From: the human T2T-CHM13v2.0 reference genome, Homo sapiens
Length of the DNA stretch: 64,000 nucleotides
Reading direction: 5' to 3' (one strand)
Assembly: GCF_009914755.1 (NCBI RefSeq)
Contig: NC_060937.1
Notes under the pieces: model-generated
What the model saw: only the letters and a program-made list of their open reading frames with translations
Databases searched by the model: none
What the model was told of the DNA's origin: nothing
Translations under genes and position numbers: made by a program
Part shown: in pieces, positions 53,280-60,720 of the stretch
Position numbering within the stretch: the first letter of the stretch is position 1
Layout of the letters: each line of letters starts with the position of its first letter

Positions 53280-54006
53280 ATCTTGGATAAACTTTTGTAT
53301 CCTGCCTTATCCACTTACTACTATTATAAACATTTTAAAATATAATAATATGCTTCAATACTGTGTTTTTTGCTTCTTTTCCTAATGACTCTATGGTATT
53401 TTATTACCAAATAGAGTGTAATCTATTTAATCATTCTTCTCTCAAGATTTTTTTCTTGAAATTATTATTTCTATGTTTATTTTATTATTATTTCTATATT
53501 TATATTAAAAATAACAGAGCAATGAAGATTTTTGTACATAAATCTTGTATACATATCTAATTATTTTGATATGTACATTCCTAGAAGTGAAGTCGCAAGT
53601 TTTATATCTAAAGCTTTTAAATTGTACTGCAATTATAACTTCCCAAAAGAGTGATTTATGTGTTGTGCTCTGTCAAATAATACATATTTTCCCAATCCCT
53701 TGTCAACATTAGATAGATAGAACATAAATTCCAAATTGAGGAGTAAAACATTTTGTTGTTGTTCTAATTACTTGTTTTCCTTTTTATAATAATGTTGAAC
53801 TTTTTTTTGAAAATTCACATTTCTGTTTTTGCGAATCGCCTTTCATGTTCTTTGTTTGTTTTTCATTCAGTATTTTTATTATTATGTTTTTCTTACTGAC
53901 TTTTGAAAGCTCTTTATCACCCATATATAACCCAATGTATGTTTTTTTCCAGGATGTCATTTACTTTTTAATTCCATTTATGATTTGTTTTAAAGTATAG
54001 AAACTT
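53280..54006 (-). mobile_element. Ancient L1ME-type fragment, left part (host of the young L1)
   Basis: ttcctagaagtgaa.t.gc, aatgttgaac.ttttt, aaagctcttta; continues colinearly after 60274. Confidence 0.6.
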
Positions 54007-54007
54007 G

Positions 54008-54185
54008 ATACCTCCCTGCAAGCTGAGGGAGCAGGCTCCGGCCTTGGCCAGCCCAGAAAGGGGATCCCACAATGCAGCGGTGGGCTGAAGTGTTCCTCAA
54101 GTGCCGCCAAAGTGGGAGCCCAGGCAGAGGAGGCGCCGAGAGCGAGTTAGGGCTGTGAGGACTGCCAGCACGCTGTCACCTCTCA
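54008..54185 (-). mobile_element. First ~178 bp of an LTR12C (HERV9 LTR), antisense, inside the L1 insertion
   Basis: The reverse complement reads tgagaggtgacagcgtgctggcagtcctcacagccct..ctcgctctcggcgcctcctctgcctgggctcccactttggcggcacttgagg..., the LTR12C 5' terminus. Confidence 0.9.
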
Positions 54186-54229
54186 ACACTGCGGTGCTGA
54201 TAATGACACTTCCTGATAATTAGGAATGT

Positions 54230-56216: not shown

Positions 56217-59200
56217 ATGACAGGATCAAATTCACACATAACAATATTAACTTTAAATATAAATGGACTAAATTCTGCAATTAAAAGACACAGACTGGCA
56301 AATTGGATAGAGTCAAGACCCATCAGTGTGCTGTATTCAGGAAACCCATCTCACATGCAGAGACACACATAGGCTCAAAATAAAAGGATGGAGGAAGATC
56401 TACCAAGCAAATGGAAAGCAAAAAAAAAAGGCAGGGGTTGCAATCCTAGTCTCTGATAAAACAGACTTTAAACCAACAAAGATCAAAAGAGACAAAGAAG
56501 GCCATTACATAATGGTAAAGGGATCAATTCAACAAGAAGAGCTAACTATCCTAAATATTTATGCACCCAATACAGGAGCACCCAGATTCATAAAGCAAGT
56601 CCTGAGTGACCTACAAAGAGACTTAGACTCCCACACATTAATAATGGGAGACTTTAACACCCCACTGTCAACATTAGACAGATCAACGAGACAGAAAGTC
56701 AACAAGGATACCCAGGAATTGAACTCAGCTCTGCACCAAGCAGACCTAATAGACATCTACAGAACTCTCCACCCCAAATCAACAGAATATACATTTTTTT
56801 CAGCACCACACCACACCTATTCCAAAATTGACCACATACTGGGAAGTAAAGCTCTCCTCAGCAAATGTAAAAGAACAGAAATTATAACAAACTATCTCTC
56901 AGACCACAGTGCAATCAAACTAGAACTCAGGATTAAGAATCTCACTCAAAGCCGCTCAACTACATGGAAACTGAACAACCTGCTCCTGAATGACTACTGG
57001 GTATATAATGAAATGAAGGCAGAAATAAAGATGTTCTTTGAAACCAACGAGAACAAAGATACAACATACCAGAATCTCTGGGACGCATTCAAAGCAGTGT
57101 GTAGAGGGAAATTTATAGCACTAAATGCCTACAAGAGAAAGCAGGAAAGATCCAAAATTGACACCCTAACATCACAATTAAAAGAACTAGAAAAGCAAGA
57201 GCAAACACATTCAAAAGCTAGCAGAAGGCAAGAAATAACTAAAATCAGAGCAGAACTGAAGGAAATAGAGACACAAAAAACCCTTCAAAAAATCAATGAA
57301 TCCAGGAGCTGGTTTTTTGAACGGATCAACAAAATTGATAGACCGCTAGCAAGACTAATAAAGAAAAAAAGAGAGAAGAATCAAATAGACACAATAGAAA
57401 ATGATAAAGGGGATATCACCACCGATCCCACAGAAATACAAACTACCATCAGAGAATACTACAAACACCTCTACGCAAATAAACTAGAAAATCTAGAAGA
57501 AATGGATACATTCCTCGACACATACACTCTCCCAAGACTAAACCAGGAAGAAGTTGAATCTCTGAATAGACCAATAACAGGCTCTGAAATTGTGGCAATA
57601 ATCAATAGTTTACCAACCAAAAAGAGTCCAGGACCAGATGGATTCACAGCCGAATTCTACCAGAGGTACAAGGAGGAACTGGTACCATTCCTTCTGAAAC
57701 TATTCCAATCAATAGAAAAAGAGGGAATCCTCCCTAACTCATTTTATGAGGCCAGCATCATGCTGATACCAAAGCCAGGCAGAGACACAGCCAAAAAAGA
57801 GAATTTTAGACCAATATCCTTGATGAACATTGATGCAAAAATCCTCAATAAAATACTGGCAAACCGAATCCAGCAGCACATCAAAAAGCTTATCCACCAT
57901 GATCAAGTGGGCTTCATCCCTGGGATGCAAGGCTGGTTCAATATATGCAAATCAATAAATGTAATCCAGCATATAAACAGAGCCAAAGACAAAAACCACA
58001 TGATTATCTCAATAGATGCAGAAAAAGCCTTTGACAAAATTCAACAACCCTTCATGCTAAAAACTCTCAATAAATTAGGTATTGATGGGACGTATTTCAA
58101 AATAATAAGAGGTATCTATGACAAACCCACAGCCAATATCATACTGAATGGGCAAAAACTGGAAGCACTCCCTTTGAAAACTGGCACAAGACAGGGATGC
58201 CCTCTCTCACCGCTCCTATTCAACATAGTGTTGGAAGTTCTGGCCAGGGCAATCAGGCAGGAGAAGGAAATAAAGGGTATTCAATTAGGAAAAGAGGAAG
58301 TCAAATTGTCCCTGTTTGCAGATGACATGATTGTTTATCTAGAAAACCCCATCGTCTCAGCCCAAAATCTCCTTAAGCTGATAAGCAACTTCAGCAAAGT
58401 CTCAGGATACAAAATCAATGTACAAAAATCACAAGCATTCTTATACACCAACAACAGACAAACAGAGAGCCAAATCATGAGTGAACTCCCATTCACAATT
58501 GCTTCAAAGAGAATAAAATACCTAGGAATCCAACTTACAAGGGATGTGAAGGACCTCTTCAAGGAGAACTACAAACCACTGCTCAAGGAAATAAAAGAGG
58601 ACACAAACAAATGGAAGAACATTCCATGCTCATGGGTAGGAAGAATCAATATCGTGAAAATGGCCATACTGCCCAAGGTAATTTACAGATTCAATGCCAT
58701 CCCCATCAAGCTACCAATGACTTTCTTCACAGAATTGGAAAAAACTACTTTAAAGTTCATATGGAACCAAAAAAGAGCCCGCATCGCCAAGTCAATCCTA
58801 AGCCAAAAGAACAAAGCTGGAGGCATCACACTACCTGACTTCAAACTATACTACAAGGCTACAGTAACCAAAACAGCATGGTACTGGTACCAAAACAGAG
58901 ATATAGATCAATGGAACAGAACAGAGCCCTCAGAAATAATGCCGCATATCTACAACTATCTGATCTTTGACAAACCTGACAAAAACAAGCAATGGGGAAA
59001 GGATTCCCTATTTAATAAATGGTGCTGGGAAAACTGGCTAGCCATATGTAGAAAGCTGAAACTGGATCCCTTCCTTACACCTTATACAAAAATCAATTCA
59101 AGATGGATTAAAGATTTAAACGTTAGACCTAAAACCATAAAAACCCTAGAAGAAAACCTAGGCATTACCATTGAGGACATAGGCGTGGGCAAGGACTTCA

Positions 59201-60045
59201 TGTCCAAAACACCAAAAGCAATGGCAACGAAAGACAAAATTGACAAATGGGATCTAATTAAACTAAAGAGCTTCTGCACAGCAAAAGAAACTACTATCAG
59301 AGTGAACAGGCAACCTACAACATGGGAGAAAATTTTCGCAACCTACTCATCTGACAAAGGGCTAATATCCAGAATCTACAATGAACTCAAACAAATTTAC
59401 AAGAAAAAAACAAACAACCCCATCAAAAAGTGGGCGAAGGACATGAACAGACACTTCTCAAAAGAAGACATTTATGCAGCCAAAAAACACATGAAGAAAT
59501 GCTCATCATCACTGGCCATCAGAGAAATGCAAATCAAAACCACTATGAGATATCATCTCACACCAGTTAGAATGGCAATCATTAAAAAGTCAGGAAACAA
59601 CAGGTGCTAGAGAGGATGTGGAGAAATAGGAACACTTTTACACTGTTGGTGGGACTGTAAACTAGTTCAACCATTGTGGAAGTCAGTGTGGCGATTCCTC
59701 AGGGATCTAGAACTAGAAATACCATTTTACCCAGCCATCCCATTACTGGGTATATACCCAAATGACTATAAATCATGCTGCTATAAAGACACATGCACAC
59801 GTATGTTTATTGCGGCACTATTCACAATAGCAAAGACTTGGAGCCAACCCAAATGTCCAACAATGATAGACTGGATTAAGAAAATATGGCACATATACAC
59901 CATGGAATACTCTGCAGCCATAAAAAATGATGAGTTCATGTCCTTTGTAGGGACATGGATGAAATTGGAAACCATCATTCTCAGTAAACTATCGCAAGAA
60001 CAAAAAACCAAACACCGCATATTCTCACTCATAGGTGGGAATTGA
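56217..60045 (+). pseudogene. L1ORF2: L1 ORF2 (endonuclease/reverse transcriptase), inactivated
   Basis: ATG at 56217. 2-bp deletion at ~56309 (ataaagagt>atagagt) causes a frameshift; in-frame extra Lys (QKKKA); TGG>TAG at 59608-59610; FADD retained; natural stop at 60043-60045. Confidence 0.93.
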
Positions 60046-60273
60046 ACAATGAGATCACATGGACACAGGAAGGGGAATATCACACTCTGGGGACTGTGGT
60101 GGGGTCGGGGGAGGGGGGAGGGATAGCATTGGGAGATATACCTAATGCTAGATGACATGTTAGTGGGTGCAGCGCACCAGCATGGCACATGTATACATAA
60201 CTAACCTGCACAATGTGCGCATGTACCCTAAAACTTAGAGTATAATAAAAAAAAAAAATTAAAAAAAAAAAAA

Positions 60274-60720
60274 AGAAACTTAATCTTAATGCTCTTGGCT
60301 TTGTCAGCTCTTTCTTTTATAGTTTCTATCTTTGATTTTATGCCTTGAAATTGTTATCTCAACCTAAAAGCTGATAAAAATTTATTTATATATTTTTCTT
60401 ATTTTGTATGTGTGTGTGTGTTTTAATTCTTACACATTTAACATTTTAGGCTGTCTAGAATTTATTTTTGTGTGTGGAATAAAAATGTGATCACATGTAT
60501 TTCTTTTACATTAAGATTTCAGACAGAATATATCTAAAGTGCACATTGTATAACCCTTCTCTCAGTGATCTGAAATGCCATTTTTATCATACACCAAATT
60601 CTCAGTCTACTACAGTTGGATTTTGGGCTCTGCATTCTCTTTCATGAAGTGATCTTCAAGGACTCTCATCTTTGTGGTCTTCATTTTTACATCTTAATGT
60701 AGCTGTAGTATCCTTTTTAA
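60274..60720 (-). mobile_element. Ancient L1ME-type fragment, right part
   Basis: tcttttatagtttct, ttacacatttaa...tctagaatttatttttgtgtgtgg, gatctgaaatgcca..tttatcata.accaaatt. Confidence 0.6.

What the first reader, a model, noticed from the sequence alone, without database searches (positions are those of the whole stretch)
53999..60284. L1HS carrying an antisense LTR12C leader: probable LTR-driven 5' transduction
Seen: no TSD abuts the L1 5' end at 54230. The sequence after the poly(A) tail (agaaactt, 60274-60281) recurs ~230 bp further upstream (53999-54006). The old L1ME host runs colinearly across these two copies, so 54007-60273 is one insertion. It contains one G, ~178 bp of the LTR12C 5' end in antisense orientation ending exactly at the LTR terminus (tctca, 54185), 44 bp of unique spacer, and then the L1. 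Known: LTR12C is a strong germline/placental promoter, 5' transductions are rare, and full-length inserts often gain a 5' G from the cap. Inference: the source L1 sat 44 bp from an LTR12C and was transcribed from a divergent start inside the LTR. G54007 could be the copied cap, and the recalled consensus at the inferred start (CC-A-CACC) fits an initiator. The TSD can also be read as 11 bp with one mismatch (agaaacttgat/agaaacttaat). An upstream LTR promoter might let an L1 bypass silencing of its own promoter, and the leader would tag a whole lineage. I cannot tell whether this has been reported.
Basis: partly seen in the sequence, partly recalled or inferred. Interest (0 to 1): 0.88.

Follow-up and report, generated by a model that had tools for sequence, protein, structure and literature searches.

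The report
LTR-started exon fused to L1
A full-length L1 jumping gene on chromosome 13 carries in front of it a copy of the first exon of a chromosome 3 transcript that starts inside an old retroviral LTR; it is a further example of a kind of exon-L1 fusion first catalogued in 2026.

Summary
Window 54007-60273 is one L1-type insertion flanked by the 8-bp duplication AGAAACTT. It holds one extra G, a 216-217-nt leader, a full-length L1 and an A12-TT-A13/14 tail.

The leader has exactly one other home in this genome, chr3:180,075,271-180,075,487 (2 adjacent mismatches). There a complete LTR of the same family lies antisense, followed by the same 38-nt unique flank.

Two corrections change the reading. 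First, the spacer is 38 nt, not 44. The last GAATGT belongs to the L1, because three other full-length L1s without the leader begin the same way. Second, on chr3 the homology stops at AATTAG|GTAAGA, a strong 5' splice-site motif, and no L1 lies there.

So the leader looks like a capped first exon. It starts at CC-A-TACC, 73 nt downstream of a GC box, ends at its splice donor, and is joined to the very 5' end of an L1 RNA. It does not look like read-through from an L1 lying 44 bp from the LTR.

Law & Burns (2026) listed 17 such exon-L1 chimeras. This locus is not among them. There are no sibling copies, and ORF2 is now broken.

Verdict: a new member of a known kind, of moderate interest.

The parts
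53999..54006 (+). Left target-site duplication AGAAACTT. It is preceded by T, so the bottom-strand nick context is TTCT/A.
   Evidence: this is the only copy of the 8-mer in 53400-54235.
54007..54007 (+). One G that is not templated by chr3, which has C here. It is either a copied-cap G or the mismatch of an 11-bp duplication.
   Evidence: alignment.
54008..54185 (+). It carries the chr3-specific T in CC-A-TACC.
   Evidence: 99% to chr3, and 38 other LTR copies at 94-96%, 36 of which end at window 54185-54190; the only differences from chr3 are two adjacent bases.
54186..54223 (+). Leader, part 2: 38 nt of unique chr3 flank, ending in AATTAG. On chr3 this is followed by GTAAGA, a 5' splice-site motif.
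   Evidence: 100% identity over 54176-54224, and only 2 places in the genome hold it.
54224..54224 (+). Ambiguous G. It is shared by chr3 (first base of GTAAGA) and by the L1 lineage's 5' end (G-GAATGT).
54225..60246 (+). Full-length L1 of the young human lineage, with the lineage-specific 5' end GAATGT-GGAGCC. 5'UTR to 55136. ORF1 55137-56153 is open (338 codons). ORF2 runs from 56217 to about 60045. It is broken by a 2-nt deletion after 56308 and by an in-frame stop at 59608-59610. The 3'UTR has a 4-nt deletion after 60197.
60247..60273 (+). Tail A12-TT-A13/14. The same A-TT-A pattern is in 5 of the 7 other L1 copies inspected, with a further interrupted form in the old chr9 copy, so it belongs to the lineage and is not a 3' transduction.
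60274..60281 (+). Right target-site duplication AGAAACTT.
53996..54321 (+). LINC00381 exon 3, from the hub's RefSeq table. Its acceptor AG (53994-53995) lies in the old host L1. The exon holds 11 nt of host, the whole leader and the first ~97 nt of the L1. It ends at CTGAG|GTACC in the L1 5'UTR.
   Evidence: Annotation supplied with the finding; splice-site dinucleotides read.

Best explanation
Window 54007-60273 is one target-primed L1 insertion of a chimeric RNA.

Its first 216 nt are the first exon of a chromosome 3 transcript. That transcript starts inside a solo LTR (LTR12C-type) on the LTR's antisense strand, at an initiator-like CC-A-TACC 73 nt downstream of a GC box. It runs 178 nt to the LTR edge and 38 nt into unique DNA. 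It ends at a strong 5' splice site, AATTAG|GTAAGA.

That exon end is joined to the first bases of a full-length L1 RNA of a lineage whose transcripts begin G-GAATGT-GGAGCC.

The join was most likely made by splicing before reverse transcription. It could be cis-splicing to an L1 allele further downstream on chr3 that was never fixed, or trans-splicing to an L1 transcript from elsewhere. L1 proteins then copied the chimera into an old antisense L1 on chr13 at a TTCT/A nick. The extra G is the copied cap.

Shown: a single insertion, the chr3 origin, the breakpoint at the donor motif, and the L1 lineage's own 5' end.
Inferred: that the chr3 exon is really transcribed and spliced, and how the two RNAs were joined.
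For: 1. One duplication flanks leader plus L1, and the L1 has none of its own.
2. The leader matches chr3:180,075,271-180,075,487 with 2 adjacent mismatches in 217 nt. It shares a chr3-specific base that the other LTR copies lack. The spacer is held at only 2 places in 3.1 Gb.
3. On chr3 the match stops at AATTAG|GTAAGA. In 228,000 strand-bases of local sequence, AGGTRAG occurs 26 times, AGGTAAG 10 times and AGGTAAGA twice. A random breakpoint, allowing 2 positions, would therefore land on such a motif about once in 4,400.
4. GAATGT before GGAGCCAAGATGG is also the start of three other full-length L1s, each with its own duplication and no leader: chr2:158.02 Mb, chr16:38.51 Mb and chr9:24.24 Mb. 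That is 4 of the 39 pattern matches. The exon end therefore meets the true 5' end of the L1 RNA.
5. Upstream of the chr3 start lie CCGCCC at -73, 78% G+C and 21 CpG in -200..-1.
6. The leader's 2 differences from chr3 in 217 nt are of the same order as the L1 body's own changes (28 private substitutions in about 6,010 nt), as expected if both arrived together.
7. Precedent: Law & Burns 2026 (PMC13174262; sections 13, 14, 20 and Table S5 read).
   - They list 17 hg38 L1 insertions with mRNA or lncRNA starts on near-full-length L1s.
   - 6 of them end exactly at splice donors.
   - Some join within the first 10 bp of L1 with no acceptor (MAP3K13, FHIT).
   - 15 of the 17 donor loci hold no intronic L1.
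Against: - No annotation, CAGE or RNA data for the chr3 locus could be consulted. The exon, its start and the use of its donor are inferred from sequence alone.
- No acceptor can be shown. The join is at the very first bases of the L1 RNA, where an L1-promoter transcript has no upstream intron, so ordinary splicing needs an unseen longer precursor.
- No sense-strand L1 lies within 50 kb downstream on chr3. The three L1-like pieces of 100 nt or more found there are all antisense. No perfect match to the young 5' 65-mer lies between chr3:170.06 and 189.47 Mb, although only 100 of 1,056 matches were listed.
- Right after the donor, chr3 reads GAATCTGG. This resembles the L1 lineage's GAATGTGG. 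T|AAGAATCTGG would also be a good L1 nick site and duplication, which fits a lost L1 at that spot. However, MAFFT aligned the same chr3 bases to a different part of the L1, so such likenesses come cheaply.
- The review PMC11853044 (passages only) states that LTR12C-driven transcription was mainly unidirectional in one experimental setup (cells treated with epigenetic inhibitors), with bidirectional transcription at certain LTR12 repeats.
Confidence: 0.68

Rival explanations
1. Classical 5' transduction. A full-length L1 of the GAATGT lineage once lay on chr3 directly after ...AATTAG(G), or 10 nt further on after GAATCTGG. The LTR's antisense start read through it. That allele was never fixed or was lost, and CHM13 shows the empty site. 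The splice-donor motif is a coincidence.
For:
- Most new L1 insertions never fix, so a lost source is ordinary. Law & Burns also consider lost alleles.
- chr3 GAATCTGG after the breakpoint resembles the lineage's GAATGTGG, and T|AAGAATCTGG would give a TCTT/A nick.
- A 1-2-nt shared G at the junction is compatible with an L1 5' junction.
Against: - The breakpoint falls on AG|GTAAGA, which chance gives about once in 4,400.
- For a junction at AATTAG(G), the possible nick sites upstream (AATT/A, TTAT/C, CATT/A) are poor (read).
- For the junction 10 nt further on, a 4-nt deletion and a C/G change are needed within 10 nt, while the other 217 nt differ at only 2 bases.
- A 4%-diverged L1 on chr9 already has GAATGT. 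If GAATGT came from the chr3 flank, that source would have to be old and long-lived, yet it is absent from CHM13.
Confidence: 0.13
2. The chimera was made during reverse transcription, not at the RNA level. ORF2p copied the L1 RNA to its 5' end, then jumped to a second RNA from chr3 and copied it to its cap. The second RNA would be either the released first exon of a splicing intermediate (free 3' end at the donor) or an unspliced transcript entered at the GG.
For: - Both pieces are copied to their 5' ends. The L1 is copied to its lineage-specific first bases, and the leader to an initiator-like A plus an extra G.
- The join is end-to-end, with 1-2 nt of shared G.
- No acceptor is needed, which fits the lack of one.
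- L1 chimeras made by template switching or RNA ligation are known for U6 and other small RNAs (PMC6789731, abstract only; PMC13174262 sections 13 and 20).
Against: - A jump into an unspliced RNA would hit the exon-intron border only by chance, about once in 4,400.
- A released exon 1 is a rare, short-lived species bound to the spliceosome.
- In known switch chimeras the L1 part is usually 5'-truncated. Here it is complete.
Confidence: 0.15
3. Two unrelated events: an LTR fragment with flank arrived first, by duplication or by its own retrocopy, and an L1 later landed beside it.
For: None beyond the general frequency of nested repeats.
Against: - A single duplication brackets both pieces, and none abuts the L1 alone.
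- The leader has no poly(A) tail of its own.
- The leader and the L1 body have diverged to a similar degree.
Confidence: 0.02

Closest known systems
[quoted passage not shown]
   Same: - One duplication, an endonuclease-type nick site and a poly(A) tail bracket a non-L1 5' piece plus a near-full-length L1.
- The 5' piece is the start of a transcript, in sense with the L1.
- It ends exactly at a splice donor, as in 6 of their 17 cases.
- It joins within the first bases of the L1 with no visible acceptor, as in the MAP3K13 and FHIT cases.
- The donor locus holds no L1, as in 15 of their 17 cases.
   Different: - The first exon here starts inside a retroviral LTR on its antisense strand, and four fifths of it is repeat sequence.
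- The locus is not in their Table S5 (0 of 17 rows). No LTR family name appears in that paper's main text (5 occurrences of 'ltr', none a family name).
- Their pipeline annotates upstream pieces by BLAST against transcript databases. Why it missed this one is my guess.
RAP1GDS1-L1PA2 promoter co-option (same paper, section 14)
   Same: A host promoter and a spliced first exon supply the 5' end of a retrotransposed L1.
   Different: - There the source L1 is present in the intron, with a cryptic acceptor 15 bp upstream of it. It lacks its own promoter, and it gave several progeny.
- Here no source is seen, the L1 5'UTR is complete, and there are no sibling copies.
Classical L1 5' transduction by read-through from an upstream promoter
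   Same: Non-L1 sequence lies in front of a full-length L1 inside one duplication, and there is an extra 5' G.
   Different: The leader should be the contiguous flank of the source L1. Here it stops at a splice-donor motif and no L1 lies beside it in this genome.
U6/L1 and other small-RNA/L1 chimeras (template switch or RtcB ligation; PMC6789731, abstract only)
   Same: Two RNAs are joined in one L1-mediated insertion, in the same orientation.
   Different: There the 5' piece is a whole small RNA and the L1 is usually truncated. Here the 5' piece is a Pol II first exon and the L1 is complete.
SVA exon trapping and 5'-transducing SVA groups (recalled, not read here)
   Same: Upstream exons are spliced onto a retrotransposon RNA and carried along.
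   Different: SVA has internal acceptors and gave rise to whole subfamilies. Here there is no acceptor and no progeny.

Membership tests
L1 target-primed insertion | Target-site duplication bracketing the whole insert | tested here: met
   AGAAACTT lies at 53999 and 60274. It is unique in the 836 nt upstream.
L1 target-primed insertion | Poly(A) tail and a T-rich/A nick site | tested here: met
   Tail 60247-60273. The bottom strand reads TTCT/A at the left end of the duplication.
Exon-L1 chimeric insertion (Law & Burns 2026) | The non-L1 5' piece maps to a single other locus and ends at a canonical GT splice donor there | tested here: met
   chr3:180,075,271-180,075,486/7, followed by GTAAGA.
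Exon-L1 chimeric insertion (Law & Burns 2026) | The 5' piece is the start of an annotated transcript, in sense with the L1 | not testable with these tools
   No annotation or RNA data for chr3 were available. The only supports are an initiator-like start, an extra G, a GC box at -73 and 78% G+C.
Exon-L1 chimeric insertion (Law & Burns 2026) | Near-full-length L1 (>5 kb) | tested here: met
   6,022 nt from the lineage's first bases to the 3' end, aligned end to end with 7 other full-length copies.
Exon-L1 chimeric insertion (Law & Burns 2026) | Leader and L1 arrive together in species alignments | not testable with these tools
   No ape genomes were held. The only indirect evidence is similar divergence of leader (2 of 217) and L1 body (28 private substitutions in about 6,010).
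Classical read-through 5' transduction | The source L1 lies directly downstream of the transduced flank | tested here: not met
   No L1 lies at the chr3 breakpoint in CHM13. Unique DNA follows, and there is no sense L1 within 50 kb. A lost allele cannot be excluded.
Small-RNA/L1 template-switch chimera | The 5' piece is a complete small structured RNA and the L1 is usually 5'-truncated | tested here: not met
   The 5' piece is LTR plus unique flank, and the L1 is complete.
LTR12C (HERV9 LTR) | Sequence membership of the repeat family, with its terminus at 54185 | tested here: inconclusive
   38 other copies at 94-96% identity, 36 of them ending at 54185-54190. This shows a dispersed LTR family and its edge. 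The complete chr3 copy has 7 ATTGG (CCAAT) boxes. The family name itself could not be checked without a repeat library.
L1HS (human-specific L1) | Subfamily-diagnostic bases and absence from apes | tested here: inconclusive
   - The L1 differs by 1.07-1.38% from six young full-length copies and by 4.06% from an older one.
- It has 28 private substitutions against 11-16 in four comparison copies (chr16 has 32), and 7 states shared only with the older copy. It is therefore an early member or a late predecessor.
- The subfamily diagnostics are recalled only, and the ape sites were not testable.

The most novel reading that the evidence does not exclude
The join of a capped first exon's 3' end to the very first bases of an L1 RNA, with no acceptor and no L1 at the donor locus, was made in trans. 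It arose either by trans-splicing or by ORF2p jumping from the L1 5' end onto a released exon 1. If so, L1 samples promoter-proximal exons from anywhere in the nucleus, including exons started by retroviral LTRs on their antisense strand. Repeat-masked leaders such as this one would then be systematically under-counted in existing catalogues.
Probability: 0.3. Interest if true: 0.65.

Novelty: new member of a known kind. Interest (0 to 1): 0.42.

Why it matters
- It adds a clean case, resolved to the base, to a class described only in 2026, and extends that class to a first exon born in an LTR. Two retroelement families are coupled here: a retroviral LTR supplies the start and an L1 supplies the machinery.
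- It shows that a leader made mostly of repeat sequence can hide such events from surveys.
- It gives a concrete junction for testing cis-splicing against trans-splicing against template jumping: donor at T2T chr3:180,075,486|487, L1 RNA starting G-GAATGT.
- Locally, the insertion created most of LINC00381 exon 3.
- It does not show a heritable bypass of L1 silencing. No promoter was copied, no progeny exist, and ORF2 is dead.

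Tried and rejected
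- DNA searches with the left and right host flanks found only the window. Host colinearity therefore rests on weak protein-level hits.
Four were fetched instead, so the L1 comparison rests on 8 copies only.
- Shared minority bases link the chr13, chr2:158 Mb and chr16 copies at a few sites, several of them CpG. That is too few to prove a sub-lineage.
- I considered that GAATGT comes from the chr3 flank GAATCT, that is, a master L1 at chr3. I rate it low, for the reasons given under the first rival.
- I looked for a sense L1 downstream on chr3. There is none in 50 kb. The genome-wide 65-mer list was cut at 100 of 1,056 matches.
- Literature searches:
  - LINC00381: 8 papers, none on structure.
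  - LTR12C with antisense or bidirectional, then passages of PMC11007075 and PMC11853044: no LTR of this family at chr3 177 Mb is listed, and nothing on this antisense start.
  - LINC00501 with LTR12: no paper listed links the two.
  - LTR12C with transduction, L1HS and chimeric, then passages of PMC3024322: nothing on this locus.
- The search term '5 transduction' does not match the primed spelling. It scored 0 occurrences in a paper that has the phrase in its headings. Searches are therefore blind for that phrase, and 'not in print' is not shown.
- PDFs among the Law & Burns supplements (Figures S7-S8) could not be read.

Full report
**What is there**

The window is T2T-CHM13 chr13:73,594,001-73,658,000. 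From left to right it holds:
- AGAAACTT at 53999-54006;
- one G at 54007;
- GC-rich sequence to 54185;
- a unique stretch;
- an L1 5' end (GGAGCCAAGATGG from 54230);
- the L1 body, with its 3' end at 60246;
- a tail A12-TT-A13/14 at 60247-60273;
- AGAAACTT again at 60274-60281.

The 8-mer occurs only once in the 836 nt upstream of the L1, and no other 8-mer of the post-tail sequence recurs there. The L1 therefore has no duplication of its own, and 54007-60273 is one insertion. The nick context TTCT/A is of the L1 endonuclease type.

The host is an old L1 on the minus strand. L1 ORF2 residues 1188-1204 match 53503-53553, and residues 944-969 match 60433-60510. Order and spacing are right, but the E-values are weak at 0.041 and 0.014. 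DNA searches with either flank found only the window itself.

**Where the leader comes from**

I searched the whole genome with 54000-54260. It scored 40 of 2,039 candidates:
- the window itself;
- one match at chr3:180,075,271-180,075,487, 99% identical over query 9-225 (window 54008-54224);
- 38 copies of a dispersed LTR at 94-96% identity. 36 of these stop at window 54185-54190 and 14 stop exactly at 54185.

So 54008-54185 is the antisense 5' end of an LTR and ends at the LTR terminus.

A 65-nt query across the spacer (54176-54240) has only two homes in 3.1 Gb: the window, and chr3 at 100% over 54176-54224. There are no sibling copies.

The chr3 locus (L002) holds a complete LTR of about 1.6 kb in the same antisense orientation. 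It is followed by the same 38 unique bases. The alignment shows identity from A54008 to G54224, except for two adjacent bases. At the start, chr3 reads CC-A-TACC. The T is specific to this copy, because most other LTR copies match only from two bases further in. The G at 54007 is not templated, since chr3 has C there.

**Two corrections that change the reading**

First, the last GAATGT of the supposed 44-nt spacer is not from chr3. A pattern search for the junction (39 matches at up to 2 mismatches) found the same GAATGT directly before GGAGCCAAGATGG in three other full-length L1s:
- chr2:158,019,771;
- chr16:38,514,057;
- chr9:24,236,675.

Each has its own duplication and a few different extra bases in front (TAGTGG-, (A)G-, GCT-), and none has the leader. 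A further copy, at chr5:147.1 Mb, starts GATGT. L1 RNAs of this lineage therefore start at G-GAATGT. The chr3-derived leader is 216 nt (54008-54223) plus one G shared by both partners.

Second, on chr3 the homology stops at AATTAG|GTAAGAATC. This matches the recalled 5' splice-site consensus MAG|GTRAGT at 7 of 9 positions. Unique DNA follows, not an L1.

I counted such motifs in 228,000 strand-bases of local sequence, made up of the window plus 50 kb of chr3:

| Motif | Occurrences |
|---|---|
| AGGTRAG | 26 |
| AGGTAAG | 10 |
| AGGTAAGA | 2 |

A random breakpoint, allowing two positions for the shared G, would meet such a site about once in 4,400.

**The start site**

Upstream of the chr3 A lie a GC box (CCGCCC at -73), 78% G+C and 21 CpG in -200..-1. 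The LTR's CCAAT repeats (7 ATTGG) lie 528-934 nt away. This looks like a TATA-less start of its own rather than a divergent start from the LTR's main promoter.

The start matches the recalled initiator pattern YYANWYY, and the extra G fits a copied cap. No expression data could be consulted. A review states that LTR12C-driven transcription was mainly unidirectional in one experimental setup, with bidirectional transcription at certain LTR12 repeats (PMC11853044, passages only).

**The L1**

It is complete at 6,022 nt. Its distances from other copies are:
- 1.07-1.38% from six young full-length copies;
- 4.06% from the chr9 copy.

Against six young copies it has 44 private columns, of which 8 are CpG transitions. 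These break down as follows:
- 28 substitutions not shared with the old chr9 copy;
- 7 substitutions shared only with it, which look like ancestral states;
- 9 indel columns.

Four comparison copies have 11-16 such private substitutions, while chr16 has 32. The chr13 element is thus about twice as old as those four, and is an early member of the human-specific group or a late predecessor. At roughly 0.1% per million years (recalled) that is some 4-6 million years. Whether apes share it could not be tested.

ORF1 is open (338 codons). ORF2 is broken by a 2-nt deletion after 56308 and by an in-frame stop at 59608-59610, a position where all 7 other copies have a sense codon. The A-TT-A tail pattern is in 5 of the 7 other copies inspected, with a further interrupted form in the old chr9 copy. 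It is therefore a lineage trait and not a 3' transduction.

**How it most likely arose**

The leader has the anatomy of a capped first exon. It has a defined start with an extra G, a length of 216 nt, and an end exactly at a strong donor. It meets the true first bases of an L1 RNA.

This is the pattern that Law & Burns (Cell Genomics 2026, PMC13174262) report. I read sections 13, 14, 20, 39-41 and all of Table S5.
- They list 17 L1 insertions in hg38 with the starts of mRNAs or lncRNAs on near-full-length L1s.
- 6 of them end precisely at splice donors.
- Some join within the first 10 bp of L1 with no acceptor.
- 15 of the 17 donor loci hold no intronic L1.
- They propose cis-splicing to a lost L1 allele, or trans-splicing, and they do not favour template switching.

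Our locus is none of the 17 rows. The only 'chr13' strings in that table are the six RPL21 exons. No LTR family name appears in the paper's main text.

I therefore file the chr13 element as a new member of that kind. Its particular feature is that the first exon is born in an LTR on its antisense strand.

**Rivals**

   - In its favour, CHM13 chr3 looks like an empty site, and lost sources are ordinary.
   - Also in its favour, the bases after the donor (GAATCTGG, with a possible T|AAGAATCTGG nick site and duplication) resemble the lineage's GAATGTGG.
   - Against it stands the donor coincidence.
   - The nick sites are poor for a junction at AATTAG(G).
   - For the other junction, a 4-nt deletion and a base change are needed within 10 nt, when the other 217 nt differ at 2 bases.
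   - MAFFT aligned the same chr3 bases to another part of the L1, so such likenesses are cheap.
   - I give this rival 0.13.
2. A template jump by ORF2p from the L1 5' end onto a second RNA.
   - It needs no acceptor and explains an end-to-end join.
   - It explains the exon border only if the acceptor RNA was a released exon 1.
   - I give this rival 0.15.
3. Two separate insertions. I give this 0.02.

**What could not be shown**

- No sense-strand L1 lies within 50 kb downstream on chr3. The three L1-like pieces found there are all antisense.
- No perfect match to the young 5' 65-mer lies between chr3:170.06 and 189.47 Mb. Only 100 of 1,056 matches were listed.
- Neither the chr2 nor the chr16 copy has a usable acceptor in front. 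One has A-rich sequence and the other has GG.
- The way the two RNAs were joined therefore stays open.

Only transcribed sequence was copied. The promoter upstream of +1 did not travel, and there are no progeny. The idea of a promoter-tagged lineage that escapes silencing is therefore not supported for this element.

What the insertion did do is local. According to the hub's annotation, LINC00381 exon 3 (53996-54321) uses an acceptor in the old host. It runs through the whole leader and ends at CTGAG|GTACC in the L1 5'UTR. By position in the L1 this appears to be the same donor that bounds the 99-624 interstitial deletion quoted. That link is my inference.

**Verdict**

The adjacency mechanism is unlikely. 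The kind is known since 2026 and this member appears unreported, although the literature search has the limits stated under Tried and rejected. Interest is moderate.

Noticed in passing
window 53996-54321: LINC00381 exon 3 (hub annotation) is built almost wholly from the insertion. Its acceptor lies in the old host L1, 11 nt before the insert. It then holds the whole LTR-derived leader and the first ~97 nt of the L1, and ends at the L1 5'UTR donor CTGAG|GTACC.
   Followed up: partly
L031 (chr2:158,019,771), L032 (chr16:38,514,057), L033 (chr9:24,236,675), L039 (chr5:147,145,378): A small set of full-length L1s starts with GAATGT (GATGT in L039) instead of the usual G-rich first bases. One of them is 4% diverged from the rest. 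Either this variant 5' end was inherited for a long time in a side lineage, or it arose more than once. Not resolved.
   Followed up: partly
L040 (chr2:167,446,414): This young full-length L1 seems to carry about 21 nt of unexplained sequence between a possible A-rich duplication and GGAGCC. It may be another short 5' leader.
   Followed up: no
window 60247-60273 and the tails of L031, L032, L039, L040, L042: The tails share an A(11-13)-TT-A(11-17) pattern. It must be templated, that is, part of the lineage's RNA 3' end, rather than a fresh poly(A) tail.
   Followed up: no
window 54933-54939: A 7-nt insertion in the 5'UTR relative to five of the six younger comparison copies and the older chr9 copy is shared, with one base different, with the chr2:167 Mb copy. 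It is probably a length variant of a short repeat in the family.
   Followed up: no
L002 3040-3217 (chr3:180,076,813-180,077,073): The 3' end of an older L1 lies antisense about 1.3 kb downstream of the chr3 donor (88.6% to the young L1 over 262 nt). It has the wrong strand to be the source.
   Followed up: yes
L039-L042: All 4 of the closest relatives fetched have an open ORF2 of 1,275 codons. The chr13, chr2:158 Mb, chr16 and chr9 copies do not.
   Followed up: no
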